Sequence record: PZ049722.1
DNA from: a phage
Reading direction: 5' to 3' (one strand)
Length of the DNA: 23,441 bases
A program made the position numbers and the translations under genes. The notes beneath the pieces were generated by a model that made no database searches, was not told where the DNA came from, and saw only the letters and a program-made list of their open reading frames with translations. Shown here piece by piece: positions 1 to 17,090 of the stretch (position 1 is the stretch's first letter; every line of letters starts with the position of its first letter).

Positions 1-1147
1 TGATCAACCGACCACGCACGAGCGGGCGCTTATTTATGTGCAGGTGCGTGCTGGGCGCCGAGATGCGAAGACCCTCTGCGAGGCGCTGATCAGCGCGACC
101 AGAAGCGCGGCCGAGCACCAATCTTCTTGACGGCGCCCGCCCTTCATGAGCATGACCCACCCCGGCGGCGGCCGATCACCCTCGCGATGTTCTCCGACCT
201 GCCTTACCGCGCTGTCCATTGAGCTGATCATCAACAAGGTCGGCAACGCCCGCGCTGAAGGGGCCGGGTCGACCAGGCGCACAACATCGCTCGAGCGTGA
301 GTTCCGAAGCGGCTTGCCCCTCATGGACAAGCCCAGCAACCTGCGAGCAGATCGACATCTTAATGCTGGCTCGAGATCCAACACACACCACCGCCATCCA
401 CGACACCACCAGCGCACCCGCTACTGCGCTGCAAGGCATCCCGCCTCTGCAGCTGCGCATCGCGGCCGGCTGCCGAGACCTGCCGCGAGCTGGCTGATCG
501 CCCAGCCGGAGAAATGGACGCCCCCCGCCAAACGCGCGAGCCGTTCCGCCGCGCCGGAGCATGCATCGCCGACGGTGCGGGCCTGATGGTCGGTGACAAG
601 CGTGCGCCGATCGCCCCGCAACCCCCATGCGCGCTACGAGGAGAGATGCGCCCAGCTCCGTGCTGGTCGGCGAACGACGGTCGCTAGCATTACCACGTGG
701 TCCAGCGCGTTCATAAGGCATGACAACGGCTTCGCCTCAACCGGTGCTACACCTGCCGAGCTGACCGGCCAGCGGATCCGCTCCTGCTGCCGGAGAGCCA
801 GGCCGAGCAGACCAGCACAGACGTTGCACCCCAGCTCGCTGGATGCACCTGACCACCCTACCGCAGGCCGACAAGGTGGGAAGAGGCGCGCGCCACGCCG
901 ATTTCGGCGGCGAGATCGACCCCGTTCAAGTAACAGGCCGAATACCATGCTGCGGGCCTACCTGCCAACTGCCGAGAGCAGCGAAAGCCGCTCCGGCCTG
1001 GCCTCGGCGGAGCTGAAAGCCGCTGCAAATGCATCGAGCTGGCCTAGTCGCCCGCCCCTGGGCAGCGGCTGGACGCCGAGTCCGACTGGGGTTGCTCAAG
1101 GCCAAGGACCCCGACGGCGCCATGGAGGAGCCCCGCTCGACGCCTGA
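1..1147 (+). pseudogene. Decayed partial copy of the Mu-like transposase A gene (central to C-terminal part), several frameshifts
   Basis: ORF 146..586 contains LSIELIINKVGNARA and QRTRY, and ORF 593..1147 contains NTMLRAYLP, SRSGLAS.ELK, LGSGWTP and YPDGAMEE, all matching the 590-aa transposase at 9469..11241 but in different frames. Confidence 0.65.
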
Positions 1148-1313
1148 TCGTCGCCGAGCTCCAAGCCCCTGCATGCTCAGGCCCTGCCCCTGGTTCGGGC
1201 GGCTGCCGAAACTGTCTCAAGAAAGTGCTGGCCAGCGCGGGCAAGGCTGGCTCACCTGGGGCCAGGGCGGGTGAAGCTCAGCGGCAGAAGCCATCTGCCC
1301 AACTGATTACCTC

Positions 1314-2388
1314 ATGGCCAGCGGCCGAAGAGCATTTCCTGATGAACAGCCAGCCGGGGGGGGCAACACTGCGCCCCAACCAACAAGGTGCTGGAAGCTT
1401 CGATGCGGCTGTGCGCTGTGTTTGAAGAGAGGCAAGACCCTGCGCCAGCAAATGCGGCCGGCCCTCGCAACCCGGAAAACAAATCAAACGAAAACCTGCA
1501 CACCACAAGGCCAACCCCGGCTCCACCGGAGGTGCTGCGACCAGACACCCAAAGCGGCGTTCAACCTCGACCGCGACCCCTTCGACGACCTCGAGTTCGG
1601 CCGGATGAGATGCGTCCCTGAGCTCGATATCCGGCTAACATCTCCGTGCCGAAACACACTACGCGCCACCACGGCTCTCCTGGCCGGCTGGTGGGCGAGT
1701 CCGGCGCCGGAGCTGCGCCGGCGCCAGCCCGGCCAGCTGCCGCCTTGCAACCAGCGGTGATCGTCATCGAACCCTACGTGCTGGGCATGGAGGACCAACT
1801 CCTATAGGGAAGGACACGGAAGGCCACCCGCACGGACAGTCCGCCCGCCGCTGCTGGAACCCTTGCGAAAAGCTGAAATCCAGCCCCCCGAAGCCCTGCT
1901 TCTGCAAAAGATGTACGCCATGCTCAAAGCGTCACGGCGCAGGCTTTCGCCACGTGCTGATCATCGAAGAGGTGCACTCCAGCCTGCCCATCCCCACGCT
2001 CACGCACCTCAAGCGCATGCGTGACCAGCTCGAACACCTGGCTTCGACAATGCTGTCCATGTCCTCATCGGCCAGCCCAGCTGCTGATCAAACGAGCCCG
2101 CAAGGCGACGTGCGTCGAGGTGGCCCAGCCCATCGAGATTGCGCAACTGCAGCCCATCCTCACGTCGGTGACCTGGACTGCGCACCTGGCATTTTCGTTG
2201 CAAGCACGCCGGCAAGCAGCTCCGAGCTGATCGATGCCAGCGGCGTGCAGGCCATCATCGAACGCCTGGGCAGCTCGGGTAAAGTACGTGCCAGCCAGCT
2301 CCACCCGCTGGCCATCGGCAACATGTTCAACGCCGCCTCAACCTCGCCGCCGAAATCGGCGAAAGCCGCATCACCGCTGATGTTGTGA
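1314..2388 (+). pseudogene. Decayed copy of the MuB-like ATPase gene, frameshifted
   Basis: ORF 1314..1760 has AFNLDRDPFDDL and ORF 1954..2388 has LIIEE.HS.LPIPTL.HLKRMRDQLEH and LIDASGVQAIIERLGSSGK, matching the 390-aa protein at 8300..9472 with indels. Confidence 0.65.
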
Positions 2389-2402
2389 AGGGGGTGTGAG
2401 CC

Positions 2403-2828
2403 ATGGCCATCACCATCGAACAAATCATGGAGCAGGCTCAGGTGTACGCCTCGGCCTGGAGCCTGGTCGGCGGGCCGTTCGACCAGGGCAACCTGCTGCA
2501 GCAGGCCGAGCTGGAGAAGCGGTGCTGCTGGAGATGGTCACTGCCTTCGAGGACGAACCCATGCCGCAGGGGCCCAGGAAGCGCAGCTCGACCTGGCTAA
2601 GCCGCTGATCGAGTGGCACCAGCACCGCATTGGCAACCTCAGCAAGTTGCAGCAGGCGGTAGAGGGCACTGAGATCCGCCTCGGCGAGGCTGATGCCGAT
2701 CCCATCGTCCTGCAGGCGCGATGCTAAAAGGCTGGCGCTTCGCCTTGGCGATTGCCGAGCAGCAGTTCGAGAAGTTCCCGCTGTCCATCGAGCGCAAAGC
2801 TCCCACCAGCGACGAGGAGGATGACCAT
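2403..2828 (+). pseudogene. Frameshifted copy of the 141-aa early gene found intact at 7871..8296
   Basis: ORF 2403..2600 shares the first 39 residues (MAITIEQIMEQAQVYASAWSLVGGPFDQGNLLQQAELEK) with the 141-aa protein and then leaves frame; 1-bp deletions seen relative to the right arm. Confidence 0.6.
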
Positions 2829-3176
2829 GCGCGCTCCCAACGTCATCCCGCTCAGCGCCAGATCGCCGCTGAGATCTCCATCCAACACGCGCTGCCCATG
2901 TGCACCGTGCTGACCCCTGAACTGGCCGACAAGCTCCGCGCCCTCAACGACATGACCCGCCGCCTGCGCGCGGCGGGCGTGCGTATCGAGGCCGCATCCC
3001 CGCTCGACGGCAAGATCTTCATCAACGCCGAAGACTCCGACCAGCTCGCCGCATCGTTCCGCAGTGAGTGGCGCGGCGTGAGTTGGAGCACCAAAGGCGT
3101 CCACACCATCAACAGCGTCCGCCTCGGCGGCTGCCAAGTCTGCTGGCTTACGCCAGTGAAGGAGCAGGAGTCATGA
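2826..3176 (+). pseudogene. Frameshifted copy of the 118-aa early gene found intact at 7518..7874
   Basis: ORF 2721..3176 carries the C-terminal 100 residues of the 118-aa protein fused to the upstream frame; about two 1-bp deletions near 2815-2860. Confidence 0.6.
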
Positions 3177-3355
3177 GCCTCGAAGCACGCCTGCGCGAAG
3201 CGCTGGAGCTGCTCAAACGCAGCGCCGGCTACGCCTCGGCCTATCCGACCATCGGTGGCCACAAGCTCAACGACGAGATCTGCCGCTTCCGCGAGGCGGT
3301 ACAGGCCGAACTCGAAACCAACGCCCAACAAGCCGAGGAAGAAACCCATGGCTGA
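3173..3355 (+). CDS. Small hypothetical early protein (60 aa), duplicate of 7339..7521
   Basis: Internal ATG with GGAG-type RBS; identical to right-arm copy. Confidence 0.5.
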   Translation: MSLEARLREALELLKRSAGYASAYPTIGGHKLNDEICRFREAVQAELETNAQQAEEETHG

Positions 3356-3968
3356 GCAAATCGCAATCCCCGAAGGCTTCGTCAAGAATGCTGCCGGCCA
3401 TCTGGTGCCGGAACACCAGGTGCGCGAGCACGACAAGCTGCGCGACAGCGTCGCCCGCGAGCTGGCCAACCAGGCCGTGGCCATCAGCGAGGCGCTGGGC
3501 GCGTTCAAGGCTAAGGCCCTGGGCGATATCGCCGACCTGATCGCCATCTCGGCCGAGAAGTACCAGGTCAAGCTCGGCGGCAAGAAGGGCAACGTCTCGA
3601 TCGTCACCTACGACGGCCGCTACAAGATCGAGCGCGCCATGGCCGAGCGCATCACCTTCACCGAGGAGATCCTCGCGGCCAAGGAGCTGATCGACCAGTG
3701 CATCCGCAAATGGAGCGAAGGCGCCGACCAGCACCTGCGCATCCTGGTCGACCGCGCGTTCCGCGCCAACCGCCAGGGCCAGATCAAGACCGGCGACGTG
3801 CTCAGCCTGCTGCGCGTCGAGATCGAAGACCCCGACTGGCAGCGCGCGATGGAGGCCCTGAAGGACTCCATCCAGGTCAACGGCACCGCCGTATACATCC
3901 GCGTCTACCAGCGCGTCGGCAACACCGACCGTTACGAGCCCATCAGCCTCGACATTGCGAAGGTGTGA
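3348..3968 (+). CDS. Conserved phage early protein (206 aa, possibly DUF3164-like), duplicate of 6726..7346
   Basis: Identical protein on both arms; start MAEQIAIPEGF after RBS. Confidence 0.55.
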   Translation: MAEQIAIPEGFVKNAAGHLVPEHQVREHDKLRDSVARELANQAVAISEALGAFKAKALGDIADLIAISAEKYQVKLGGKKGNVSIVTYDGRYKIERAMAERITFTEEILAAKELIDQCIRKWSEGADQHLRILVDRAFRANRQGQIKTGDVLSLLRVEIEDPDWQRAMEALKDSIQVNGTAVYIRVYQRVGNTDRYEPISLDIAKV

Positions 3969-3970
3969 CC

Positions 3971-4678
3971 ATGGACCAGGATCGCATTCTCGAAAAGATC
4001 AAGAAGTGCATGGAGATGGCCAAGGGCAAGGGCTCGAATCCGAACGAGGCCGAAATCGCCCTGCGCCAGGCGCATAAGCTGATGGAGGCCTACAACCTGG
4101 AGATGGGCGACGTCCTGGCCAGCATGGCCGGTGAGGTCACCATCGAAGCCGGCTCGGATGGTACCCCACCCACCTGGCGTATCCGCCTGGCTCAGGTGTG
4201 CGCCCATGCGTTTGGCACGCGCATGATCATCACGCAGAAGCTCACGGACCACTTCGACGTTGTAGGCGCCTTCATCTTTGTGGGCTGCGCAGCGGCACCA
4301 GAGCTGAGCGGATACGCCTACCAAGTGCTGGAGCGGCAGCTGCAGAAGGCTCGACGTGAGTTCCTGCAGTCACCGAAGAACAAGCGCTGCAAGCGCTCAA
4401 CCAAGGTCGCGCGCGGCGATCACTTCGCTAACGGCTGGATTGATGCCGTGTACCTCAAGGTCGACCAGTTCGCTGGCGTTGACGACAACATCGCCGAAGC
4501 GATCGAAGCCTACATGGCGAAGCACCACGCCGACCTGGGCAAGCACGAAATGAAGCGCCGCAAGCTCAAAGCCCGCGATGAAGGTGCCGCCGAGGCCGGT
4601 TACCAGGCTGGCAAGAGCGCCCAACTGCACCACGGACTTGGCCACAAGCCCGTCGCCCGACTGACTCAGGGGGTGTGA
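3971..4678 (+). CDS. DUF2786-like phage protein (235 aa), duplicate of 6016..6723
   Basis: N-terminus MDQDRILEKIKKCMEMAKGKGSNPNEAEIALRQAHKLMEAYNLE resembles the DUF2786 signature; identical on both arms. Confidence 0.55.
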   Translation: MDQDRILEKIKKCMEMAKGKGSNPNEAEIALRQAHKLMEAYNLEMGDVLASMAGEVTIEAGSDGTPPTWRIRLAQVCAHAFGTRMIITQKLTDHFDVVGAFIFVGCAAAPELSGYAYQVLERQLQKARREFLQSPKNKRCKRSTKVARGDHFANGWIDAVYLKVDQFAGVDDNIAEAIEAYMAKHHADLGKHEMKRRKLKARDEGAAEAGYQAGKSAQLHHGLGHKPVARLTQGV

Positions 4679-4679
4679 G

Positions 4680-4904
4680 ATGCAAACCCTTGAATGCACC
4701 GTGAAGTACTACATGGGTGCCTACCAGACCAACACCGTGCGCAGCCAGCGCGCCAGCTGCAGCCACTCCGAGGACGAGGCCGTGCGCCACCTGGGCGTAA
4801 AGCTGTTCGGCGAGCAGCTCCACCACGTCGAGCGCATCGATCTCAAACCCAGCGATCAGCCGGGCATGAGCCGCTGGCTGATCGTTGGTCGGGAGGTGCA
4901 GTGA
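4680..4904 (+). CDS. Small hypothetical protein (74 aa), duplicate of 5790..6014
   Basis: Identical ORF on both arms; starts 2 nt after upstream stop. Confidence 0.45.
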   Translation: MQTLECTVKYYMGAYQTNTVRSQRASCSHSEDEAVRHLGVKLFGEQLHHVERIDLKPSDQPGMSRWLIVGREVQ

Positions 4905-5327
4905 TGGGCCATCCAATTTTCCAAGACGCCCCCTCAAGGGACATGACCAAGGCTCAGGAGCGCCAGGCCGAGCTAGATGCGCAGGTCGAAGCCTTCCTGG
5001 CCAAGGGCGGGGAGATCAAGGCCTTCGACAACTTCCGCCGTCCTGATCCAGAGTGGGCCCTGGCGCTCGAAGTCGATCAACCCCGAGCAGCAGAAGCCAG
5101 CTCAGGCTGCGCCCATCAAGGCGAAACCGGCCAAGCCCGCCGCTCCTGTGAAGGCAAAGCCGGTACCGGAGGTGCCAGCCGAACCGGTGGCGGTGGCTAC
5201 CATCGACCTCAGCGCTGAGCTGCGCGCCTTGCGCAAGCAGACTGCAGCCATCAACCGCCCGGCCTGGCGCGAGTTGAGGTCTTTCGAGGACTCGACGCCA
5301 GCAACGCGGCGCAGCAGCGCGCGATAG
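4904..5327 (+). pseudogene. Frameshifted copy of the 130-aa K/P/A-repeat protein encoded intact at 5395..5790
   Basis: Identical for 47 residues after MGHPIF, then leaves frame near 5041-5050 where the two arms differ by an indel; the proper frame continues in ORF 4977..5327. Confidence 0.6.
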
Positions 5328-5398
5328 CTGTCGTCATCCATGCCCAGTTGGCCCTTGGCGATGTGGATCTTGCTGAGTACGCCTTTCGAGATACTCAT
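5261..5398 (-). pseudogene. GemA-like (Mu gp16, DUF1018-like) gene, 5' fragment of about 46 codons cut by the inversion junction
   Basis: N-terminus MSISKGVLSKIHIAKGQLGMDDDSYRALLRRVAGVESSKDL fits the GemA family start; beyond codon 46 ORF 5102..5398 reads antisense to duplicated sequence. Confidence 0.6.
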
Positions 5399-5790
5399 GC
5401 GCGACCACCCATAGAGCAGCTCAGGCGATTAAGGCGGCGGTTGATGGCTGCAGTCTGCTTGCGCAAGGCGCGCAGCTCAGCACTGAGGTCGATGGTAGCC
5501 ACCACCACCGGTTCGGCTGGCACCTCCGGTACCGGCTTTGCCTTCACAGGAGCGGCGGGCTTGGCCGGTTTCGCCTTGATGGGCGCAGCCTGAGCTGGCT
5601 TCTGCTGCTCGGGGTTGATCGACTTCGAGCGCCAGGGCCCACTCTCGATAGGACGGCGGAAGTTGTCGAAGGCCTTGATCTCCCCGCCCTTGGCCAGGAA
5701 GGCTTCGACCTGCGCATCTAGCTCGGCCTGGCGCTCCTGAGCCTTGGTCATGTCCCTTGAGGGGGCGTCTTGGAAAATTGGATGGCCCAT
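5395..5790 (-). CDS. Hypothetical early protein (131 aa) with K/P/A-rich repeat tail
   Basis: Start MGHPIF overlaps upstream stop; contains PAQAAPIKAKPAKPAAPVKAKPVPEVPAEP. Confidence 0.5.
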   Translation of the reverse strand: MGHPIFQDAPSRDMTKAQERQAELDAQVEAFLAKGGEIKAFDNFRRPIESGPWRSKSINPEQQKPAQAAPIKAKPAKPAAPVKAKPVPEVPAEPVVVATIDLSAELRALRKQTAAINRRLNRLSCSMGGRA

Positions 5791-6014
5791 CACTGCACCT
5801 CCCGACCAACGATCAGCCAGCGGCTCATGCCCGGCTGATCGCTGGGTTTGAGATCGATGCGCTCGACGTGGTGGAGCTGCTCGCCGAACAGCTTTACGCC
5901 CAGGTGGCGCACGGCCTCGTCCTCGGAGTGGCTGCAGCTGGCGCGCTGGCTGCGCACGGTGTTGGTCTGGTAGGCACCCATGTAGTACTTCACGGTGCAT
6001 TCAAGGGTTTGCAT
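5790..6014 (-). CDS. Small hypothetical protein (74 aa)
   Basis: ORF in operon context, tight spacing to neighbours. Confidence 0.45.
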   Translation of the reverse strand: MQTLECTVKYYMGAYQTNTVRSQRASCSHSEDEAVRHLGVKLFGEQLHHVERIDLKPSDQPGMSRWLIVGREVQ

Positions 6015-6015
6015 C

Positions 6016-6723
6016 TCACACCCCCTGAGTCAGTCGGGCGACGGGCTTGTGGCCAAGTCCGTGGTGCAGTTGGGCGCTCTTGCCAGCCTGGTAACCGGCC
6101 TCGGCGGCACCTTCATCGCGGGCTTTGAGCTTGCGGCGCTTCATTTCGTGCTTGCCCAGGTCGGCGTGGTGCTTCGCCATGTAGGCTTCGATCGCTTCGG
6201 CGATGTTGTCGTCAACGCCAGCGAACTGGTCGACCTTGAGGTACACGGCATCAATCCAGCCGTTAGCGAAGTGATCGCCGCGCGCGACCTTGGTTGAGCG
6301 CTTGCAGCGCTTGTTCTTCGGTGACTGCAGGAACTCACGTCGAGCCTTCTGCAGCTGCCGCTCCAGCACTTGGTAGGCGTATCCGCTCAGCTCTGGTGCC
6401 GCTGCGCAGCCCACAAAGATGAAGGCGCCTACAACGTCGAAGTGGTCCGTGAGCTTCTGCGTGATGATCATGCGCGTGCCAAACGCATGGGCGCACACCT
6501 GAGCCAGGCGGATACGCCAGGTGGGTGGGGTACCATCCGAGCCGGCTTCGATGGTGACCTCACCGGCCATGCTGGCCAGGACGTCGCCCATCTCCAGGTT
6601 GTAGGCCTCCATCAGCTTATGCGCCTGGCGCAGGGCGATTTCGGCCTCGTTCGGATTCGAGCCCTTGCCCTTGGCCATCTCCATGCACTTCTTGATCTTT
6701 TCGAGAATGCGATCCTGGTCCAT
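6016..6723 (-). CDS. DUF2786-like phage protein (235 aa)
   Basis: Same protein as 3971..4678; internal start MDQDRILEK. Confidence 0.55.
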   Translation of the reverse strand: MDQDRILEKIKKCMEMAKGKGSNPNEAEIALRQAHKLMEAYNLEMGDVLASMAGEVTIEAGSDGTPPTWRIRLAQVCAHAFGTRMIITQKLTDHFDVVGAFIFVGCAAAPELSGYAYQVLERQLQKARREFLQSPKNKRCKRSTKVARGDHFANGWIDAVYLKVDQFAGVDDNIAEAIEAYMAKHHADLGKHEMKRRKLKARDEGAAEAGYQAGKSAQLHHGLGHKPVARLTQGV

Positions 6724-6725
6724 GG

Positions 6726-7346
6726 TCACACCTTCGCAATGTCGAGGCTGATGGGCTCGTAACGGTCGGTGTTGCCGACGCGCTGGTAGACGCGGATGTA
6801 TACGGCGGTGCCGTTGACCTGGATGGAGTCCTTCAGGGCCTCCATCGCGCGCTGCCAGTCGGGGTCTTCGATCTCGACGCGCAGCAGGCTGAGCACGTCG
6901 CCGGTCTTGATCTGGCCCTGGCGGTTGGCGCGGAACGCGCGGTCGACCAGGATGCGCAGGTGCTGGTCGGCGCCTTCGCTCCATTTGCGGATGCACTGGT
7001 CGATCAGCTCCTTGGCCGCGAGGATCTCCTCGGTGAAGGTGATGCGCTCGGCCATGGCGCGCTCGATCTTGTAGCGGCCGTCGTAGGTGACGATCGAGAC
7101 GTTGCCCTTCTTGCCGCCGAGCTTGACCTGGTACTTCTCGGCCGAGATGGCGATCAGGTCGGCGATATCGCCCAGGGCCTTAGCCTTGAACGCGCCCAGC
7201 GCCTCGCTGATGGCCACGGCCTGGTTGGCCAGCTCGCGGGCGACGCTGTCGCGCAGCTTGTCGTGCTCGCGCACCTGGTGTTCCGGCACCAGATGGCCGG
7301 CAGCATTCTTGACGAAGCCTTCGGGGATTGCGATTTGCTCAGCCAT
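6726..7346 (-). CDS. Conserved phage early protein (206 aa, possibly DUF3164-like)
   Basis: Same protein as 3348..3968. Confidence 0.55.
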   Translation of the reverse strand: MAEQIAIPEGFVKNAAGHLVPEHQVREHDKLRDSVARELANQAVAISEALGAFKAKALGDIADLIAISAEKYQVKLGGKKGNVSIVTYDGRYKIERAMAERITFTEEILAAKELIDQCIRKWSEGADQHLRILVDRAFRANRQGQIKTGDVLSLLRVEIEDPDWQRAMEALKDSIQVNGTAVYIRVYQRVGNTDRYEPISLDIAKV

Positions 7347-7521
7347 GGGTTTCTTCCTCGGCTTGTTGGGCGTTGGTTTCGAGTTCGGCCTGTACCGCCT
7401 CGCGGAAGCGGCAGATCTCGTCGTTGAGCTTGTGGCCACCGATGGTCGGATAGGCCGAGGCGTAGCCGGCGCTGCGTTTGAGCAGCTCCAGCGCTTCGCG
7501 CAGGCGTGCTTCGAGGCTCAT
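7339..7521 (-). CDS. Small hypothetical early protein (60 aa)
   Basis: Same protein as 3173..3355. Confidence 0.5.
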   Translation of the reverse strand: MSLEARLREALELLKRSAGYASAYPTIGGHKLNDEICRFREAVQAELETNAQQAEEETHG

Positions 7522-7874
7522 GACTCCTGCTCCTTCACTGGCGTAAGCCAGCAGACTTGGCAGCCGCCGAGGCGGACGCTGTTGATGGTGTGGACGCCTT
7601 TGGTGCTCCAACTCACGCCGCGCCACTCACTGCGGAACGATGCGGCGAGCTGGTCGGAGTCTTCGGCGTTGATGAAGATCTTGCCGTCGAGCGGGGATGC
7701 GGCCTCGATACGCACGCCCGCCGCGCGCAGGCGGCGGGTCATGTCGTTGAGGGCGCGGAGCTTGTCGGCCAGTTCAGGGGTCAGCACGGTGCACATGGGC
7801 AGCGCGTGTTGGATGGAGATCTCAGCGGCGATCTTGGCGCTGAGCGGGATGACGTTGGGAGCGCGCATGGTCAT
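7518..7874 (-). CDS. Hypothetical early protein (118 aa)
   Basis: Intact ORF in early operon; the left-arm copy is frameshifted. Confidence 0.5.
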   Translation of the reverse strand: MTMRAPNVIPLSAKIAAEISIQHALPMCTVLTPELADKLRALNDMTRRLRAAGVRIEAASPLDGKIFINAEDSDQLAASFRSEWRGVSWSTKGVHTINSVRLGGCQVCWLTPVKEQES

Positions 7875-8296
7875 TCCTCCTCGTCGCTGGTGGGAGCTTT
7901 GCGCTCGATGGACAGCGGGAACTTCTCGAACTGCTGCTCGGCAATCGCCAAGGCGAAGCGCCAGCCTTTTAGCATCGCGCCCTGCAGGACGATGGGATTG
8001 GCATCAGCCTCGCCGAGGCGGATCTCAGTGCCCTCTACCGCCTGCTGCAACTTGCTGAGGTTGCCAATGCGGTGCTGGTGCCACTCGATCAGCGGCTTAG
8101 CCAGGTCGAGCTGCGCTTCCTGGGCCCCTGCGGTATGGGCTTCGTCCTCGAAGGCAGTGACCATCTCCAGCAGCACCAGCTTCTCCAGCTCGGCCTGCTG
8201 CAGCAGGTTGCCCTGGTCGAACGGCCCGCCGACCAGGCTCCAGGCCGAGGCGTACACCTGAGCCTGCTCCATGATTTGTTCGATGGTGATGGCCAT
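7871..8296 (-). CDS. Hypothetical early protein (141 aa)
   Basis: Intact ORF directly downstream of the B gene; the left-arm copy is frameshifted. Confidence 0.5.
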   Translation of the reverse strand: MAITIEQIMEQAQVYASAWSLVGGPFDQGNLLQQAELEKLVLLEMVTAFEDEAHTAGAQEAQLDLAKPLIEWHQHRIGNLSKLQQAVEGTEIRLGEADANPIVLQGAMLKGWRFALAIAEQQFEKFPLSIERKAPTSDEEE

Positions 8297-8299
8297 GGC

Positions 8300-9472
8300 T
8301 CACACCCCCTTCACAACATCAGCGGTGATGCGGCTTTCGCCGATTTCGGCGGCGAGGTTGAGGGCGGCGTTGAACAGGTTGCCGATGGCCAGCGGGTAGA
8401 GCTGGCTGGCACCGTCCTTACCCGAGCTGCCCAGGCGTTCGATGATGGCCTGCACGCCGCTGGCATCGATCAGCTCGTCGAGCTGCTTGCCGGCGTGCTT
8501 GCAACGAAATGCCAGGTGCGCGTCCAGGTCACCGACGGTGATGGGCTGCAGTTGCGCAATCTCGATGCGCTGGGCCACCTCGCGCACGTCGCCGTTGCGC
8601 GGGCTGAGTTTGATCAGCAGCTCGGGCTGGCCGATGAGGATGATGGACAGCAGTTTGTCGAAGCCGTGTTCGAGCTGGTCACGCATGCGCTTGAGGTGCT
8701 TGAGCGTGGGGATGGGCAGCGAGTGCGCCTCTTCGATGATCAGCACATGGCGGAAGCCTGCGCCGTGGCTGGCTTTGAGCGTGGCGTGCATCTGCGCGAA
8801 GCGGGCTTCGGGGCTGGATTTGGCTTTCTCCAGCGGCGCCACAGCGGCCATCACAGACTCGGCAATGTGGGTGGCCTTCAGGGATTTGCCCTTGGTGTCG
8901 TTGTCCTCCATGCCCAGCACGTAGGGTTCGATGACGATCACCGGCTCATTGCGCAGGCGGTGCGCCAGGTCGCGGCGCAGCGTGCTTTTGCCGGCGCCGG
9001 ACTCGCCCACCACGGCCAGGAAGCCATCATGGCGCGCGGTCTGGTACATGCTCTCGCGGATGTAGCGGATATCGGGGCTCAGGTACATCTCATCGGCCGA
9101 CTTGAGGTCGTCGAAGGGGTCGCGGTGCAGGTTGAACGCCCGCTTGGTGTCTGGTCGCAGCACTTGTTTAGCCATTAGCATGTCGGGGCACTCCTGGGTT
9201 TCGTGATTGTTTTCCGGGGTTGCAGGGGCCTGCGCGTTGGCGCGCGCAGGCTCCATCTCTTCAAACGCGGCGCGCACAGCGTCGAACTCCGCGCCTTGTT
9301 GCATCAGGTACTCAGTGATGCCCCAGGCCAGCTGGTTCATCGGGATGCTCTTGGGCCACTGGCCGTGGTTGATCAGTTGGGCGATGGCTGCCGGGCTGAG
9401 CTTCACCGCCCTGGCCAGGTCGGCCTGGCCCTTGCCCACGCTGGCCAGCACTTGCTTGAGACGTTTCATCAC
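8300..9472 (-). CDS. Mu B-like transposition ATPase / target DNA activator (390 aa)
   Basis: Walker A GESGAGKST, N-terminal HTH-like region, sits directly downstream of and overlapping the transposase gene. Confidence 0.8.
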   Translation of the reverse strand: MMKRLKQVLASVGKGQADLARAVKLSPAAIAQLINHGQWPKSIPMNQLAWGITEYLMQQGAEFDAVRAAFEEMEPARANAQAPATPENNHETQECPDMLMAKQVLRPDTKRAFNLHRDPFDDLKSADEMYLSPDIRYIRESMYQTARHDGFLAVVGESGAGKSTLRRDLAHRLRNEPVIVIEPYVLGMEDNDTKGKSLKATHIAESVMAAVAPLEKAKSSPEARFAQMHATLKASHGAGFRHVLIIEEAHSLPIPTLKHLKRMRDQLEHGFDKLLSIILIGQPELLIKLSPRNGDVREVAQRIEIAQLQPITVGDLDAHLAFRCKHAGKQLDELIDASGVQAIIERLGSSGKDGASQLYPLAIGNLFNAALNLAAEIGESRITADVVKGV

Positions 9473-11241
9473 TCACCCCCAACCAGGCGCAGGCCTGGGC
9501 GTGCGGGCGCTTGCAGCTGGGCGACGATGGCGTCGAGCTGCTCCTCCATGGCGCCATCGGGGTAGTTGGCCTTGAGCCATTCCATCGACTCGGGCGTCCA
9601 GCCGCTGCCCAGGCGCGCGCGCAGCGCCTTGGCCAGCTCGATGCGGTTGAGCGGCTTCAGCTCCACCGAGGCCAGGCCGGAGCGGCTTTCCAGCTCTATA
9701 CCGCGCTTGGGCAGGTAGGCCGGCAGCATGGTATTGGCCTGTTCCTTGAACGGGTCGATCTCGCCGCCGAATGGCGTGGCGCGCGCCTTCTTGGCCTTCT
9801 CGGCAGCCTCGATACTGTCGGTGCCAGTGGCGAGCTGGTCCAACGTCTTCTTGGTCTGCTCGGCCTGGCTCTCCGGCAGCGAGCGGATGCCCTCGCCGAT
9901 CACTCGGCGGGTAGCACCGTTGGCGGCGAAGCCGTTGTCATCCTTGTCGACGCGCTCGACCACGTGGTAATGCTCGCGACCGTCTTCGCCGACCAGCACG
10001 AGCTGGGCGCTCTCCTGGTCGCGCCATGGGTTGCGGGTGATCAGCACACTGTCGCCGACCATCAGGCCCGGCACGTCGGCGATGCAGTACTCGGCGCCGC
10101 GGAACGGCACGCGCAGCTTGGCGGTGACCTTGCGCTTCTCCGGCTGGGCGATCGCCAGCTCGCGGCAGATCTCGGCGGCCGGCGCGATGCGCAGCTGCTC
10201 AGGGCGGATCAGCATCCAGGCGCCGTAGCGGGTGCGCTGGTGGCGGGTGTGGATGGCGGTGGCGTTGTAGTGCCGCATCCAGCGCCCGGCCAGGGCGTTG
10301 ATCTGCTCCAGGGTGCTGGGCTTGTCCATCAGGCGCAAGCCGCTCTCGAACTCACGCTCGACGATGTTGTGCGCCTGCTCGACCTGGCCCTTGGCGCGGG
10401 CGTTGCCGACCTTGTTGATGATCAGCTCGATGGACAGCGCATGGCACAGGTTGCGGAACATCGCAGAGGTCATGGCCGCACCGGGGTCGGTCATGATCAT
10501 GAAGGGCGCACCGTGGAATGGATCGTGCTCGCCACGTTTCTGCATCGCGCTGATCAGCACCTCGCAGAGGTTCTTCGCACTCTCGGCGCCCAGCACGTAC
10601 TGCACATAAATAGTGCCGCTGGTGTGGTCGGTGATCACGTAGCGCCACAGGCGCTGCTTCTCGATGCGCTTGAGATTCTCGGGCTTGCCGTCGTAGAACT
10701 CGGCCTTGTTCATGGCGCGGGCGCCGTCGTCGGCCAAGTAGAATTGGGTCGAGATCGAGGCGTCGATCTGCCAGACGTGGTTCGGGTGCAGGCTGACCAG
10801 CTCCACGGCCGGCGCCGGGCGCAGCACCTGATCCGGGTGCAGGCCGTAGGCGCGCAGGGCACGGGCGATGGCATCGAGCGACAGCGGGCGGATCTCGCCG
10901 GTGGCGCCGTCGATGATCTCGGCGCGGATCTGCCCATTGCTGCGCAGGCGCTCCACGGCGCGCTCCAGGGTGCTGAGTTGTTTATCGTTGTCGCGGATGG
11001 ACTGAATCAGCACGGCGCTGATCAGCTCCGCCTCATGCCGCTCCAGAGCCGAGGTGCCGGCATCGCTGCGACGTTTACGGGGAGTGGTCACGGTGACCTC
11101 CTTGAGCTTGCGGTAAACGGTTGCGAGGGTGATGCCCATGTCCGTTGCTGCCGCCCTGCACAGGGCGGTTTTGCTGCCGCGCGGCGCCTGCTCGATGTCT
11201 CGAGCCAGGGCTACCAGGCGTTGGGTCATCACTGCACTCAT
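9469..11241 (-). CDS. Mu A-like DDE transposase (590 aa)
   Basis: Size, N-terminal DNA-binding region, core motifs HVWQIDAS and MIMTDPGAAMTS typical of Mu/B3/D3112 transposases, followed by a B-like ATPase. Confidence 0.85.
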   Translation of the reverse strand: MSAVMTQRLVALARDIEQAPRGSKTALCRAAATDMGITLATVYRKLKEVTVTTPRKRRSDAGTSALERHEAELISAVLIQSIRDNDKQLSTLERAVERLRSNGQIRAEIIDGATGEIRPLSLDAIARALRAYGLHPDQVLRPAPAVELVSLHPNHVWQIDASISTQFYLADDGARAMNKAEFYDGKPENLKRIEKQRLWRYVITDHTSGTIYVQYVLGAESAKNLCEVLISAMQKRGEHDPFHGAPFMIMTDPGAAMTSAMFRNLCHALSIELIINKVGNARAKGQVEQAHNIVEREFESGLRLMDKPSTLEQINALAGRWMRHYNATAIHTRHQRTRYGAWMLIRPEQLRIAPAAEICRELAIAQPEKRKVTAKLRVPFRGAEYCIADVPGLMVGDSVLITRNPWRDQESAQLVLVGEDGREHYHVVERVDKDDNGFAANGATRRVIGEGIRSLPESQAEQTKKTLDQLATGTDSIEAAEKAKKARATPFGGEIDPFKEQANTMLPAYLPKRGIELESRSGLASVELKPLNRIELAKALRARLGSGWTPESMEWLKANYPDGAMEEQLDAIVAQLQAPARPGLRLVGGE

Positions 11242-11244
11242 GGG

Positions 11245-12192
11245 TCAGGCTCCCTGCTGCTGGCTGGCCAGCGCGGCGGCGACTTCCTCGTCGGCGCCAT
11301 CGCGCAGCCAGGCCGGCACTACCGTGGCCACGGGCGTGGCCTCGATGCCGTACTCCGCGCGGATCTCCAGCAGCGCTTGCTCCACCTGGGCCAGCAGGCC
11401 GGCGGCAAACACACGCTGGTCGGCGCCCTCGTGCTGCATCAGCTGGTGAATGGCCGGGTACAGCGCGCCGCTGATAGCCGCCTCGGCGGCGCCGGCCTTG
11501 GCGGTGGCCTCCAGGCGCAGTTCCTGCAGTTGCTCGTCCAGCGGCTTGACCTCTACCACTGGCTTTTTGGCGAGCTGGGTGGACAGCTCGTTGATCTTGG
11601 CGTCCTTGTCGGCCATCACGCGGCCCTGGGCGGTTTTGTCCTCGCGGGCGTCGCGCAGGGCTTTGCGTAGCTCCTTGACGGACATGGTGGCCACGTCGTC
11701 GAGGCTCAGCTCGCCGGTCTGGCCAGTGAGTTCCAGCTCCTGGATCTCTTCGTCGTCCAGGACGAGCATCTCGAACAGCTTGGATTGGTTGCCGATGGCC
11801 TTGGCCATGGCTGCGTTGCTGCCGAGAGAGGCGAATTTAGTGGCGGACTGGATGAACCTTTTGGCTACGCTCCACTCGATACCCAGCGCATCTAGTCGGT
11901 CAATAAAATTGCCGTGCCCGCATGCCTTCCTGAGCGTATATAGGCCGCGACCGACCTCCAGGCACGCTTCGACACTGCGGCGCATATTGGCAGTGATATC
12001 GCGTTGGATCAGATCCGGGTCGGTGCTGTCGGCTGGCAACAGGTAGCCGACCAGTGCGGCAGCCTCGCGCACGTCGGCTTCATGCTCGGCGCTGAGCGTG
12101 GCCACCTGGTGCTGGCGGGCCAGCAGGGTTTCGCTCTGCTGTTGATCGTCTGCGGCCAGCTCGATGGTGGCGTTGGGTTTACGAGCCATCAC
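11245..12192 (-). CDS. Hypothetical early protein (315 aa), acidic and coiled-coil rich; possibly DUF3102-like
   Basis: Long ORF with high GC3 directly upstream of the transposase; family assignment is tentative. Confidence 0.5.
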   Translation of the reverse strand: MMARKPNATIELAADDQQQSETLLARQHQVATLSAEHEADVREAAALVGYLLPADSTDPDLIQRDITANMRRSVEACLEVGRGLYTLRKACGHGNFIDRLDALGIEWSVAKRFIQSATKFASLGSNAAMAKAIGNQSKLFEMLVLDDEEIQELELTGQTGELSLDDVATMSVKELRKALRDAREDKTAQGRVMADKDAKINELSTQLAKKPVVEVKPLDEQLQELRLEATAKAGAAEAAISGALYPAIHQLMQHEGADQRVFAAGLLAQVEQALLEIRAEYGIEATPVATVVPAWLRDGADEEVAAALASQQQGA

Positions 12193-12470
12193 GCAGCCCT
12201 CCGCGCAGCATGGCCAGCAAGCCGCAGCAGGCGCTCGATCGCCTCGGTGCGGTTGCCATTGGCCTCGACCAGGGCATTGCGGAACTCGTCGGCGCCACGG
12301 CGGCAGCCGTAGTAGTAGGCGTCGAACTCCAGGCTGCCCTGTGGGTAGTTGACGGTGGTGGGCTCACCCTCGATGCGCAGCTTGAGCGCGGCGCAGAGCC
12401 CCTCGACATAGACGCTGCTGTGGCGATCGCCACCGCGTAGCAGGTGCTGGGCCAGTTTTTGGTAGTTCAT
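12189..12470 (-). CDS. Hypothetical early protein (93 aa)
   Basis: ORF overlapping the downstream start, operon context. Confidence 0.4.
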   Translation of the reverse strand: MNYQKLAQHLLRGGDRHSSVYVEGLCAALKLRIEGEPTTVNYPQGSLEFDAYYYGCRRGADEFRNALVEANGNRTEAIERLLRLAGHAARRAA

Positions 12471-12486
12471 CGTGGTGCTCCTGTTG

Positions 12487-12786
12487 TTAATGGGCGCTGA
12501 TGCGCGCCTGGATTTCAGTGATACGGGCCTGGCCGCGCTGCAGCTCTTCGGCGGTGGCCATGGCGTACTTCAGAAACGCGATGCTTGGGGCGAAGCGGCC
12601 GGTGTCGAGGCGCGTGGCGAAGCCGGCCTCGATCAGGGTGTCCATGTAGCGGGTGATGTTGGCCGGGCTCTCGCCCAGGCCCTTGGCCAGCTCGGTGTTG
12701 CTCAGACCCGTGAGGGTGTGGCCACGCAGCGCGTTGAGTACGCGCAGCACGCGCAGGGCGCTGTCGTTGGTGCGTTTGGTGGTCAT
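12487..12786 (-). CDS. Small winged-helix/HTH DNA-binding protein (99 aa)
   Basis: LRVLRVLNALRGHTLTGLSNTELAKGLGESPANITRYMDTLIEAGF resembles an IclR/MarR-type HTH. Confidence 0.5.
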   Translation of the reverse strand: MTTKRTNDSALRVLRVLNALRGHTLTGLSNTELAKGLGESPANITRYMDTLIEAGFATRLDTGRFAPSIAFLKYAMATAEELQRGQARITEIQARISAH

Positions 12787-13058
12787 GCGCTGCGCTCCAT
12801 CGGTACGACGACCAGGGCGCCGGATTGGTTGATGCCGGGTTGGCCACCGAGGGCCGTCGCCAACTGCTCGTGCAGGCTCATGGCGTCTTCACGCCAGCCT
12901 TCGGCGTTCTCCTCCATGCGGGCCAGGTCGGCGCGCAGGCGGGCGTTCTCTTCGTCCAGGCGTACGACCTCCTGGCAGAGCTGCTCCAGGGCCTGTGCGT
13001 CCAGGCGTGCCAGCAGCGTGCGGATCTCAATGGCCTTACTCATCGTCAGCCACTCCAA
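12783..13058 (-). CDS. Small coiled-coil protein (about 86-91 aa)
   Basis: ORF with heptad-like leucine and charged pattern; start may be the internal MSKAIEIR. Confidence 0.4.
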   Translation of the reverse strand: MEWLTMSKAIEIRTLLARLDAQALEQLCQEVVRLDEENARLRADLARMEENAEGWREDAMSLHEQLATALGGQPGINQSGALVVVPMERSA

Positions 13059-13563
13059 AGTCGAGTTGAGGGGTTTGCGCCTGGGCGACGTTGCCGTGGT
13101 GCCAGGCGAGGGATTCGAGACCGGCGCGGATGGCGTCCAGGGTCTGCTCGGCGGTTTGCTTGCCGTCGTAGAAGGCCATCAGCGCGCCGGTGGTGTTGTG
13201 CAGCACGCCCTGCAGCTGCTGCAGGTCGCTGGCGTTGCAGGCCTTGCCCACGGGGATGTCCACCAACAGCTTGCCGTGGGCGGCAGCCAGGTAACGGGTG
13301 ATCAGGGGCAGGCCGCAGGCTTTCTCCAATGGCAGCACCATGGTCAGCGGCAGGCGGCCATTGCCCATCCACTTGTAGAGCGAGCTGGCGTTGTTCTGGC
13401 ACAGATGGTCTGTGGCAAGCCGCTCGATCCCGCGGTTATGGCGCTGCAATGCATGCTCGGCGCAGCCGCTCATAGCCTCAGCGGGCGAGCGCGGTACCCA
13501 GTGTTTCCAATTGCGGCGGGTCATTGGATGGGGCTCCTTTGGGCCGTCTGTTGCGGCTTCCAA
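13036..13563 (-). CDS. Hypothetical early-region protein (175 aa), possible regulatory protein
   Basis: High-GC3 ORF that starts next to a divergent intergenic region. Confidence 0.5.
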   Translation of the reverse strand: MEAATDGPKEPHPMTRRNWKHWVPRSPAEAMSGCAEHALQRHNRGIERLATDHLCQNNASSLYKWMGNGRLPLTMVLPLEKACGLPLITRYLAAAHGKLLVDIPVGKACNASDLQQLQGVLHNTTGALMAFYDGKQTAEQTLDAIRAGLESLAWHHGNVAQAQTPQLDFGVADDE

Positions 13564-13647
13564 TCAAAAACTCTGTTTCACCCTTGGCAATGTCGTTACC
13601 AACGGGCCAGTCTGTTGGGGTACATTCACCAACGCGGAGAGCCCGCC

Positions 13648-13968
13648 ATGGCTACTGAGAATCAGGTTTCGGAACAAATCCGCCGCGAGGTTGCGGCTGC
13701 AACAGCGGAGCTTCGGCAGAAGCTGGATCAACAGGACGAGTGGATGAATGGCCTGTTACTGGCGCTTGAGGATCTGATGCAGGCGCTACTACGGGCGAAT
13801 CCTGAGATGGTTGAGCCTGCGATTGCGGACTGGCAGAAAGCGGCTGAGCACTACGAGCTGGCGACTCAAGGCCTGTACCCGGATGAATCACCGGAGCGTC
13901 TTGAGCCACGGAAGATGCTGTACCGGATGCTGAACGCGACAGGCGCGCTGCAGCACCGGCAGGGGTGA
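13648..13968 (+). CDS. Hypothetical small helical protein (106 aa), antisense to the early operon, atypical codon usage
   Basis: Reading frame with GC3 about 70 percent and rare codons (TTA, CTA, ACA); the antisense frame there has GC3 about 40 percent; ATG at 13648. Confidence 0.5.
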   Translation: MATENQVSEQIRREVAAATAELRQKLDQQDEWMNGLLLALEDLMQALLRANPEMVEPAIADWQKAAEHYELATQGLYPDESPERLEPRKMLYRMLNATGALQHRQG

Positions 13969-14293
13969 TCAGGCACTTGCCGTTGGCGCGAGTGGCAGCG
14001 GCCAGGATGGCGGCAACGGTTGCTGGGGCGTCTTGAACCTGCAGGCGGTCACCAATGATGCGCCCAGCGCCAATCAGCATCAGGCGATCAACCAGGCGGC
14101 GGGTGCCTTCGGTAGCCGGGGTGCGGTCGACGCAGACGCTCAGCTTGGCTTGAGCATCGGCCAGGTGCCAGGCGATGGCGCATTCGTCACCGGGGCCACA
14201 GGCGATAACGGCGTCGAGCGCGGCGCGCCAGGCGTCCATTGGGTGGGGGATCAGCTCGATCTCTTCGAGCGCGATTTGCGGTTGGTCGGTCAT
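13652..14293 (-). CDS. Early gene after ner (gene X); coding signal holds only from 14293 to about 13969 and there is no stop until 13652
   Basis: ATG at 14293 with GAGGG RBS; high GC3 for the first 109 codons, then a low-complexity S/P/A/Q tail antisense to the 13648..13968 gene. Confidence 0.4.
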   Translation of the reverse strand: MTDQPQIALEEIELIPHPMDAWRAALDAVIACGPGDECAIAWHLADAQAKLSVCVDRTPATEGTRRLVDRLMLIGAGRIIGDRLQVQDAPATVAAILAAATRANGKCLITPAGAAARLSRSASGTASSVAQDAPVIHPGTGLESPARSAQPLSASPQSQAQPSQDSPVVAPASDPQAPVTGHSSTRPVDPASAEAPLLQPQPRGGFVPKPDSQ

Positions 14294-14325
14294 GGCTGTG
14301 ACCCTCTGGCGGCGGTTGCGTTGGG

Positions 14326-14535
14326 TTAGGCGGCGACGGGTTCGCCGGTTTTGATGCCTAGGGCCACGGCGATTTCGTGGGCCTGGCCGTAGTTGGCTTT
14401 GTCGAAGCCGTTGAGCACGCGGTACACCGCGTTGCGCTTGTAGCCGTGCTCTTCGGCCCACTGGGTGATGGTGATGCCGCGCTGGCGGAATCGCTGTTTG
14501 ACCTGTTCAGGGGTCAGTGCCTTCTGGGTAGCCAT
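14326..14535 (-). CDS. Ner-like DNA-binding protein (69 aa)
   Basis: MATQKALTPEQVKQRFRQRGITITQWAEEHGYKRNAVYRVLNG...AHEIAVALGI fits the Ner/Nlp pattern; AAGGAG RBS; divergent from the repressor gene. Confidence 0.7.
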   Translation of the reverse strand: MATQKALTPEQVKQRFRQRGITITQWAEEHGYKRNAVYRVLNGFDKANYGQAHEIAVALGIKTGEPVAA

Positions 14536-14635: not shown

Positions 14636-15073
14636 ATGATTGGTGAGCGACTAAAAGAAGAGCGCAAGCGCTTAGGTCTTACCCAGCCCGGGTTGGCCGA
14701 GGTTGCTGGCGCGGCTAAGAGGACTGTCATTGACTGGGAGAAGGGCGTTTCGTCGCCTACAGCAGCCCAGTTAGAGGCACTTTCCAGGGTTGGAGTGGAT
14801 GTGCTTTTCGTCGTCACCGGTATTCGCGGTCAAACTGTGACCAATGAGTCAAATAGCGCGACGTCGCGCTATTTGACTGAAAACTCAAATCCGGTCACGC
14901 ATTCAGTGGAGGCTGAGCCGCTGGGTGAATACCGGCTAAACCGGCGCGAGAAGGCGCTACTGGAGAATTACCGAGGCTCGGACGAAGAAGGACGACGAGC
15001 CATGGAGAGCACCGCGAGTGCTCTGGCGCACAGGGACAGTGCGAAGAAGAAAGGACGCCAAGGCGGCGAATGA
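14636..15073 (+). CDS. XRE-family HTH transcriptional regulator, putative prophage repressor (145 aa)
   Basis: N-terminus ERLKEERKRLGLTQPGLAEVAGAAKRTVIDWEKG is a Cro/C1-type HTH; divergent from the ner-like gene across the operator. Confidence 0.7.
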   Translation: MIGERLKEERKRLGLTQPGLAEVAGAAKRTVIDWEKGVSSPTAAQLEALSRVGVDVLFVVTGIRGQTVTNESNSATSRYLTENSNPVTHSVEAEPLGEYRLNRREKALLENYRGSDEEGRRAMESTASALAHRDSAKKKGRQGGE

Positions 15074-15095
15074 CAGCGCGTATGGGGATTAGGGA

Positions 15096-15833: not shown

Positions 15834-15844
15834 GGCGACGAACG

Positions 15845-17060: not shown

Positions 17061-17090
17061 CGCCAGGAATAATCCGCACACCGTTTTAGA

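What the first reader, a model, noticed from the sequence alone, without database searches (positions are those of the whole stretch)
5102..5426. GemA-like gene cut after about 46 codons; early operon lacks its distal part
ORF 5102..5398 opens with a GemA-like N-terminus, but from codon 47 it reads antisense to the duplicated K/P/A-repeat gene. The rest of GemA, any Mor-like activator and the prophage end that should lie beyond it in a B3- or Mu-like genome are absent. If the junction is real, the element has lost one terminus and is probably a defective, non-transposing prophage that keeps intact A and B genes.
Basis: inference. Interest (0 to 1): 0.45.

Follow-up and report, generated by a model that had tools for sequence, protein, structure and literature searches.

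The report
Fold-back chimera truncating a phage gemA
The cut GemA gene is really in the sequence, but the cut is the turning point of a 5.2-kb fold-back copy at the window's edge. That copy decays into raw-read-like noise, so this is most likely a sequencing or assembly chimera, not a prophage that lost its end.

Summary
Observation confirmed. ORF 5102-5398 (-) starts with a true GemA N-terminus (Pfam PF06252, 29-34 bits). It is 100% identical over 50 residues to an intact 188-aa GemA in a 98.8%-identical contig. It then runs antisense into a second, inverted copy of the upstream K/P/A-rich gene.

The interpretation as a defective prophage is not supported. Window 1-5259 is the reverse complement of 5436-~10640. 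The two arms are 100% identical next to the junction (2860-5044), about 1% different at 2200-2860, and 18-25% different at 1-2000. In that outer part about half the differences are 1-nt indels, substitutions fall equally on the three codon positions, and nearly all changes are private to the left arm. This looks like unpolished long-read sequence at a contig end, not a second prophage.

The breakpoint sits exactly in a native 12-nt inverted repeat (5248-5259 and 5436-5447, 176 nt between the arms). That is the expected signature of hairpin-primed fold-back synthesis.

Five close relatives with this gene carry K/P/A gene-GemA-HI_1489_N-Mor. In the four whole prophage insertions the phage end follows, and it is mapped 126 nt after mor in three of them. 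The rest of the window is collinear with the B3-like Pseudomonas phage Young.

Low interest. A real in vivo fold-back remains possible at roughly 15%.

The parts
1..5259 (+). Fold-back arm: a reverse-complement copy of 5436-~10633 (transposase A', B, gam-like, DUF3164, DUF2786/DUF7168, 74-aa gene, K/P/A gene). It is 100% identical to the other arm at 2860-5044, about 1% different at 2200-2860, and 18-25% different (half indels) at 1-2000.
5248..5259 (.). Junction microhomology CCATCAACCGCC. On the - strand this is GGCGGTTGATGG, gemA nt 140-151. It is shared by native gemA and the antisense of the K/P/A gene.
   Evidence: L001 and L014-L017 align to the window down to 5248, 12 nt past the arm boundary. 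Alignment.
5436..5447 (.). Partner of the 12-nt inverted repeat (GGCGGTTGATGG on the + strand), inside the 3' part of the intact K/P/A gene. 176 nt separate it from the other arm.
   Evidence: one of only 3 inverted repeats of 12 nt or more with a spacer of 500 nt or less in 5248-23441
5260..5398 (-). gemA' : the native first 46 codons of GemA (native sequence actually runs on to 5248, 50 codons). Its ATG overlaps the TGA of the upstream gene (ATGA).
5102..5398 (-). Chimeric 98-aa ORF: GemA residues 1-50 followed by 48 residues of antisense K/P/A gene.
5395..5790 (-). Intact K/P/A-rich early gene (131 aa) with a Pfam SutA RNAP-binding-domain hit. Its protein is identical to the L001 gene product.
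4904..5259 (+). Inverted second copy of the K/P/A gene. It is truncated 39 nt before its stop and carries a private 1-nt insertion at 5045 plus 3 private substitutions.
5790..14535 (-). Intact early operon of a B3-like transposable phage: ner-like 14326-14535, IclR-HTH 12487-12786, A transposase 9469-11241, B ATPase 8300-9472, gam-like 7871-8296, DUF3164 6726-7439, DUF2786/DUF7168 6016-6720, 74-aa gene 5790-6014.
14636..23441 (+). XRE-type repressor (14636-15073), accessory genes, lysis genes (SLT 17532-18443), Mu gp27-like small terminase (19909-20457), large terminase (20457-22130), Mu-type portal (22124-window end, with a 1-nt frameshift near 23240).

Best explanation
The window is the left part of a B3-like (Mu-like, inverted early region) transposable Pseudomonas phage or prophage. 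Its real sequence runs from about 5248 rightwards.

Positions 1-5259 are not a second gene set. They are the same DNA read back on the opposite strand: a fold-back (inverted) chimera that an assembler kept as a contig end.

Inferred mechanism. A DNA strand whose 3' end lay at gemA nt 151 (GGCGGTTGATGG-3') snapped back onto the complementary CCATCAACCGCC further 5' on the same strand, 176 nt away, in the K/P/A gene. A polymerase then extended it, copying the early operon backwards. This could have happened during library preparation or whole-genome amplification, or rarely in the cell. One or a few such molecules were sequenced with an error-prone long-read method, and consensus quality falls to raw-read level towards the tip of the arm.

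The 98-aa 'truncated GemA' ORF is therefore a by-product of the junction. In the real genome gemA most probably continues into HI_1489_N-like, mor and the phage end, about 1.45 kb further on.

Shown: the palindrome, the one-sided error gradient, the microhomology, and the intact arrangement in relatives. Inferred: that the noise is sequencing error, that position 1 is a contig end, and where the fold-back arose.
For: (1) The inverted-repeat arms are 1-5259 and 5436-~10633. Arm segment 2860-5044 is 100% identical to 5650-7834.

(2) Differences per 200 nt are 17-25% at 1-2000, 10% at 2000-2200, 4% to 1% at 2200-2860, then 0.

(3) There are 223 substitutions against 232 indel bases, mostly 1-nt. 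Substitutions fall 72/77/72 on codon positions 1/2/3, with 98 transitions and 125 transversions.

(4) With phage Young as outgroup, the left arm has 310 private substitutions and 170 private indel columns; the right arm has 55 and 5. The left arm differs as often at conserved sites (19%) as at variable sites (22%).

(5) Young's A and B proteins align full-length in one frame to the right arm (79% and 75% identity). On the left arm they align only as low-identity fragments in several frames.

(6) All 4 arm-to-arm differences near the junction are private to the left arm; the right arm matches L001.

(7) Relatives align to 5248, 12 nt past the arm boundary, so the junction lies in a native 12-nt inverted repeat. 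This is one of only 3 such repeats in 18 kb.

(8) The two fold-back arms lie 176 nt apart. This meets the operational definition of a long-read fold-back artefact: same locus, opposite strand, within 200 bp, ~0.6% of ONT gDNA reads, recurrent at the same sites (PMC12338684). It also fits MDA chimeras, of which more than 85% are inverted with an intervening deletion and primed at 2-21 nt of complementarity (PMC1855051).

(9) The intact order K/P/A-GemA(188 aa)-HI_1489_N-Mor is seen in L001 and in four prophage insertions, L014-L017, each running into different host DNA after mor. The phage end is mapped 126 nt after mor in L014, L015 and L017. L003 has an intact gemA without the K/P/A gene.

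(10) The junction 40-mer is absent from the genome, viral and metagenome collections.

(11) A separate 1-nt frameshift in the essential portal gene fits residual long-read indel error.
Against: - No reads, coverage data or assembly metadata are available, so 'noise' and 'contig end' are inferred from sequence alone.
- The inner 2.2 kb of the left arm is error-free. That needs either several fold-back reads sharing this junction or polishing with multi-mapped reads. Several reads with the same junction could also mean a real sub-population of molecules.
- A 12-nt inverted repeat also drives genuine in vivo palindrome formation.
- The window does not show the true continuation of gemA, so the intact state of this particular genome is extrapolated from relatives.
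Confidence: 0.78

Rival explanations
1. Real in vivo fold-back rearrangement. After a break in gemA, the resected 3' strand hairpinned at the 12-nt inverted repeat and was extended. This produced a genuine inverted duplication of the early region with arms of at least 5.2 kb. It deleted the gemA 3' part, HI_1489_N, mor and the left phage end, leaving a defective prophage. The noisy outer arm is then only poor assembly of a long inverted repeat.
For: The junction lies exactly at a native short inverted repeat, as in short-inverted-repeat-initiated palindrome formation (Tanaka et al. 2002, cited in PMC12338684). The inner 2.2 kb of both arms is perfectly identical and of high quality. A, B and the late genes on the right arm are intact.
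Against: A real genomic segment should have normal depth and polish like its neighbours, yet the outer 2 kb sits at about 20% error, with changes private to that arm. The arm sits at the window edge. No relative or public contig carries the junction. From general knowledge, near-perfect palindromes with kb-long arms and a short spacer are unstable in bacteria (SbcCD and recombination).
Confidence: 0.15
2. Two different but related Mu-like prophages lie tail-to-tail. They share an identical distal early module and have diverged in A and B. The left one is a decayed pseudogene copy.
For: The outer arms differ by 18-25% while the inner arms are identical, which superficially resembles phage mosaicism. 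Relatives do show mosaic identity: 97% in the distal early genes and less than 80% in A/B.
Against: The divergence has no coding signature: codon positions 72/77/72, an indel every ~13 nt, insertions outnumbering deletions, and transitions fewer than transversions. It is almost wholly one-sided relative to an outgroup. No prophage ends or host DNA lie between the copies. The breakpoint is inside genes, at a microhomology.
Confidence: 0.02
3. Purely computational misjoin: the assembler or a hybrid-assembly graph path traversed the same unitig in both orientations, without any physical chimeric molecule.
For: The sharp quality step at ~2000-2200 and the perfect inner arm could reflect an accurate short-read graph segment joined to a long-read-only tip.
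Against: A 12-nt inverted repeat is shorter than normal de Bruijn k-mers and irrelevant to long-read overlap. Such a precise microhomology junction, with its arms 176 nt apart, points to polymerase priming on a real molecule.
Confidence: 0.05

Closest known systems
Fold-back artefact reads in long-read sequencing (Heinz, Meyerson & Li 2025, PMC12338684)
   Same: The two segments map to the same locus on opposite strands, with breakpoints less than 200 bp apart (here a 176-nt gap). There is no adapter at the turn. Such reads are recurrent at given sites and arise in library preparation.
   Different: Here the artefact is seen only as an assembled contig end, not as reads, and the platform is unknown. 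The 12-nt inverted-repeat microhomology is my observation; that paper does not use this term.
Inverted chimeras of multiple displacement amplification (Lasken & Stockwell 2007, PMC1855051)
   Same: An inverted sequence with an intervening deletion, intramolecular, with the 3' end primed on 2-21 nt of complementarity. Here the complementarity is 12 nt and the skipped stretch 176 nt.
   Different: There is no evidence that the sample was amplified with phi29 polymerase.
B3-like transposable Pseudomonas phages (e.g. phage Young PQ533664; B3 itself from my own knowledge of Braid et al. 2004)
   Same: The gene order is the same from GemA/E16 through B, A, ner-like | repressor, lysis and terminase. 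The early region is inverted relative to Mu. A is 79% identical, B 75% and the large terminase 85%.
   Different: The window lacks GemA residues 51-188, Mor and the left end. It carries an extra K/P/A (SutA-RBD-like) gene, and its portal is of the JBD25/H72 type.
Mu GemA (gp16), Pfam PF06252
   Same: The N-terminal 50 residues match profile positions 1-36 above the gathering score. The position at the distal end of the early operon also agrees.
   Different: Only about a quarter of the protein is present. The remaining 48 residues are antisense read-through, so no functional GemA can be made from this ORF.

Membership tests
GemA (PF06252) for ORF 5102-5398 | Profile match above Pfam's gathering score | tested here: met
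   29.3 bits for the 46-aa N-terminus and 34.0 bits for the ORF, cut-off 27. PHROG 286 E 1.5e-15.
GemA (PF06252) for ORF 5102-5398 | Full-length domain (119 profile positions; ~188-aa protein in relatives) | tested here: not met
   Only profile positions 1-36 are covered. Identity to intact GemA stops at residue 50.
GemA (PF06252) for ORF 5102-5398 | Followed by Mor and the phage end, as in relatives | tested here: not met
   No GemA C-terminal part, HI_1489_N, Mor or terminal sequence anywhere in the window.
B3-like / Mu-like transposable phage | DDE transposase A plus MuB-like AAA+ ATPase in an early operon | tested here: met
   rve domain and PHROG 310 (E 2.7e-117); AAA_22 and PHROG 296 (E 5.3e-79).
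B3-like / Mu-like transposable phage | B3-type layout: the early operon is divergent from repressor + lysis + Mu-type terminase and portal | tested here: met
   Collinear with phage Young. Gp27, Portal_Mu and SLT domains found.
B3-like / Mu-like transposable phage | Defined termini and insertion at varied host sites | not testable with these tools
   The ends are absent from the window. In relatives L014, L015 and L017 the end ...GCCTGCACA lies 126 nt after mor, and L014-L017 have four different host flanks.
Fold-back (inverted) chimera artefact | Two segments of the same locus on opposite strands, with breakpoints within ~200 bp | tested here: met
   Arms 1-5259 and 5436-10633, 176 nt between the arms.
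Fold-back (inverted) chimera artefact | Junction at a short complementary sequence (priming site) | tested here: met
   12-nt inverted repeat that is native to relatives.
Fold-back (inverted) chimera artefact | One arm poorly supported (low depth or quality) and at a contig end | tested here: inconclusive
   The one-sided, indel-rich error gradient rising to ~20% at window position 1 fits this. Depth and the contig boundary cannot be seen.
Fold-back (inverted) chimera artefact | Minority of reads carry the junction; the majority continue into native sequence | not testable with these tools
   No reads are available, and the source contig is not in the collections.
Genuine short-inverted-repeat-initiated palindromic duplication | Both arms present at genomic depth and equal sequence quality | tested here: inconclusive
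   The inner 2.2 kb is equal in both arms, but the outer 2 kb is grossly unequal. This argues against, without read data.

The most novel reading that the evidence does not exclude
The fold-back is a real in vivo event. A break inside gemA of a B3-like transposable prophage was healed by hairpin priming at a 12-bp inverted repeat. That created a palindromic duplication of the transposition module, at least 5 kb per arm, and deleted mor and the left end. This would be a natural example of short-inverted-repeat-driven palindrome formation that inactivates a Mu-like prophage while doubling its A and B genes.
Probability: 0.15. Interest if true: 0.35.

Novelty: not a real feature. Interest (0 to 1): 0.07.

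Why it matters
Mainly as quality control. The truncated GemA, the duplicated early genes and the 'missing prophage end' should not be annotated as a defective prophage, a second transposase set or a novel fusion ORF.

The case also gives a recognisable signature for a fold-back contig end that can be read from the sequence alone:
- a palindrome with less than 200 nt between its arms;
- a junction in a short native inverted repeat;
- a one-sided, indel-rich error gradient towards the contig tip.

If the junction were real, it would document hairpin-primed palindrome formation in a bacterial prophage. That would be of modest interest.

Tried and rejected
1. Looking for the source contig or any other occurrence of the junction. 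The 40-mer across 5259/5260 gave 0 hits in genome contigs, viral contigs and metagenome contigs. Exact-protein look-ups of the chimeric ORF, transposase A, DUF3164, DUF2786 and the large terminase also gave nothing. The origin stays unknown.

2. Two diverged prophage copies. Rejected on the codon-position, indel and outgroup tests.

3. Missed SMRTbell adapter at the turn. Rejected, because the whole 176-nt centre is native gemA and K/P/A sequence matched by L001.

4. Folding 5240-5455 as DNA. Uninformative, because the stretch includes the palindrome arms themselves.

5. A literature search for PacBio contig-end inverted duplications gave nothing directly usable.

6. The SutA link of the K/P/A protein. 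Neither phmmer nor a 20-sequence profile found any PDB chain at E <= 1, so only the Pfam hit supports it.

7. Loci L003-L012 never appeared in the script folder, so they were used only through the reading tools.

Full report
**What is in the sequence**

The 98-codon ORF 5102-5398 on the minus strand exists.
- Its first 46 residues alone score 29.3 bits against Pfam GemA (PF06252, cut-off 27, profile positions 1-27 of 119).
- The whole ORF scores 34 bits on profile positions 1-36, and PHROG 286 gives E 3.5e-15.
- Its ATG overlaps the TGA of the upstream 131-aa K/P/A-rich gene (5395-5790, minus strand) in an ATGA motif.
- Below 5260 the ORF is the antisense of a second, inverted copy of that K/P/A gene.

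**The larger structure**

The cut is the centre of a large palindrome. Window 1-5259 is the reverse complement of 5436-~10633, with a 176-nt unique centre at 5260-5435.

The right arm, read on the minus strand, carries intact genes:
- ner-like, 14326-14535
- an IclR-type HTH gene, 12487-12786
- transposase A, 9469-11241
- MuB-like ATPase, 8300-9472
- gam-like, 7871-8296
- DUF3164, 6726-7439
- DUF2786/DUF7168, 6016-6720
- a 74-aa gene, the K/P/A gene, and the start of gemA

To the right, on the plus strand, come an XRE repressor, lysis genes, Mu gp27-like and large terminase subunits, and a Mu-type portal.

This layout is collinear gene by gene with the B3-like Pseudomonas phage Young. In Young the early operon runs leftwards to E16/GemA, a Mor-like regulator and the left end.

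**The left arm is not a second gene set**

The two arms are 100% identical at 2860-5044. They then differ by about 1% (isolated 1-nt indels) at 2200-2860, 10% at 2000-2200 and 17-25% at 1-2000.

The differences in the outer part do not look like evolution:
- There are 223 substitutions against 232 indel bases, mostly single bases, and insertions outnumber deletions.
- Substitutions fall 72/77/72 on codon positions 1/2/3, with 98 transitions and 125 transversions.
- With phage Young as outgroup, the left arm carries 310 private substitutions and 170 private indel columns. The right arm carries 55 and 5.
- The left arm differs as often at sites conserved between the right arm and Young (19%) as at variable sites (22%).
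- Young's A and B proteins align end to end in one frame to the right arm. On the left arm they align only as low-identity fragments in several frames.
- The four arm-to-arm differences close to the junction (5045, 5049, 5191, 5213) are also all private to the left arm; the right arm agrees with the relative L001.

This is what a single error-prone long read at a contig tip looks like, with consensus improving as more reads pile up. It is not what divergence between two prophages or pseudogene decay looks like. From general knowledge, indels are far rarer than substitutions in bacterial pseudogenes and are biased towards deletion.

A separate 1-nt deletion splits the essential portal gene near 23240. 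Pfam Portal_Mu positions 1-303 lie in one frame and 302-335 in the next, and an alignment to JBD25 shows the missing base. This fits residual indel error in the assembly.

**The junction**

A Logan contig (L001, SRR32022290) is 98.8% identical to the right arm. It encodes the identical K/P/A protein, followed by an intact 188-aa GemA, a 182-aa HI_1489_N-like protein and a Mor-like protein.

L001 and four further relatives (L014-L017) align to the window down to 5248, which is 12 nt beyond the arm boundary at 5259/5260. Native gemA therefore contains GGCGGTTGATGG (nt 140-151). The K/P/A gene contains its complement, CCATCAACCGCC, with 176 nt between the two arms. The fold-back happened exactly within this 12-nt inverted repeat.

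Only three inverted repeats of 12 nt or more with a spacer of 500 nt or less occur in the 18 kb of native sequence. A chance coincidence is therefore negligible.

The geometry fits hairpin priming. A minus-strand 3' end at 5248 pairs with 5436-5447 on the same strand and is extended, which yields precisely the observed arrangement (inference). A 12-nt repeat is too short to mislead k-mer or overlap assemblers, so a physical chimeric molecule is more likely than a purely computational misjoin.

**Comparison with what is known**

- Fold-back artefact reads are defined as two segments at the same locus on opposite strands within 200 bp. They make up ~0.6% of ONT genomic reads, recur at the same sites and are ascribed to library preparation (PMC12338684).
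- MDA chimeras are more than 85% inverted with an intervening deletion, and their 3' ends prime on 2-21 nt of complementarity (PMC1855051).
- The present junction, with a 176-nt gap and a 12-nt match, fits both.
- Genuine in vivo palindrome formation from short inverted repeats is also known (Tanaka et al. 2002, cited) and cannot be excluded.

**What the intact element looks like**

In four prophage insertions the order is 74-aa gene, K/P/A (SutA-RBD), GemA (188 aa), HI_1489_N (182 aa), Mor (122 aa), then host genes. The host flanks are different in each. In three of them (L014, L015, L017) the phage end ...GCCTGCACA is mapped 126 nt after mor. L003 (Pseudomonas sp. P818) has the same gemA-to-end arrangement but lacks the K/P/A gene.

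Only about 1.45 kb is therefore missing beyond the junction. None of it occurs elsewhere in the window.

The junction 40-mer is absent from the genome, viral and metagenome collections, and the source contig could not be found.

**Verdict**

The GemA identification is confirmed, for the N-terminus only. The inference of a defective prophage that lost its terminus is not supported.

| Explanation | Confidence |
|---|---|
| Fold-back chimeric molecule retained as a contig end | ~0.78 |
| Real in vivo fold-back duplication and deletion | ~0.15 |
| Purely computational misjoin | ~0.05 |
| Two diverged prophages | ~0.02 |

Read mapping or PCR would decide. Interest is low.

Noticed in passing
window 5395-5790 (-); broken copy 4904-5259 (+): The K/P/A-rich early gene (131 aa) hits Pfam PF20661, the SutA RNA-polymerase-binding domain, at residues 16-42 (E 1.3e-8, 34.4 bits, cut-off 29.3). 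At least 68 homologues exist, mostly Pseudomonas and Ectopseudomonas, most carrying the same Pfam tag. In every context examined it sits between the 74-aa gene and gemA of a B3-like prophage. It is absent from the otherwise close P818 prophage (L003), so it looks like an accessory gene, possibly a phage RNAP-binding factor. No PDB match by sequence or profile.
   Followed up: partly
window ~23236-23245 (portal gene 22124-window end, +): A 1-nt deletion frameshifts the Mu-type portal gene. The Portal_Mu profile continues in the next frame, and the JBD25 alignment shows one base missing in TTCCG-ACC. This is either residual indel error or a real inactivating mutation.
   Followed up: partly
window 18245-18443 (+): The SLT lysin ORF runs ~65 codons past the point where the Young lysin homologue ends. 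The tail is Ala/Arg-rich and looks odd. It could be another frameshift, a lost stop or a genuine extension.
   Followed up: no
window 14847-14878 and 15847-15878: These are the only other inverted repeats of 12 nt or more with a short spacer in the native part: 16-nt and 15-nt arms, no spacer in either, so each is a perfect palindrome. The second lies just after the lipoprotein-like gene 15096-15833 and is possibly a terminator. The first lies inside the repressor gene.
   Followed up: no
window ~14500-17200: A lower-GC stretch (55-61% against ~65%) lies between the repressor and the lysis genes. It encodes a lipoprotein-like protein (15096-15833), two proteins with no family hit and a small HTH protein. 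It looks like an accessory (moron) region that differs from phage Young.
   Followed up: no
L014, L015, L017 (~11998) and L003 (~7607): The relatives' prophage end is ...TTTTTCTCAAGCCTGCACA, 126 nt after the mor stop in L014, L015 and L017, and it is followed by unrelated host DNA in each genome. This is a Mu-style ...CA terminus with non-specific insertion.
   Followed up: partly
L005 and L006 (Ectopseudomonas toyotomiensis JCM 15604): Two different contigs each end exactly 2908 nt from a gemA homologue with the same statistics. The same prophage end sits at two contig ends, which suggests a repeat-induced assembly break or two prophage copies.
   Followed up: no
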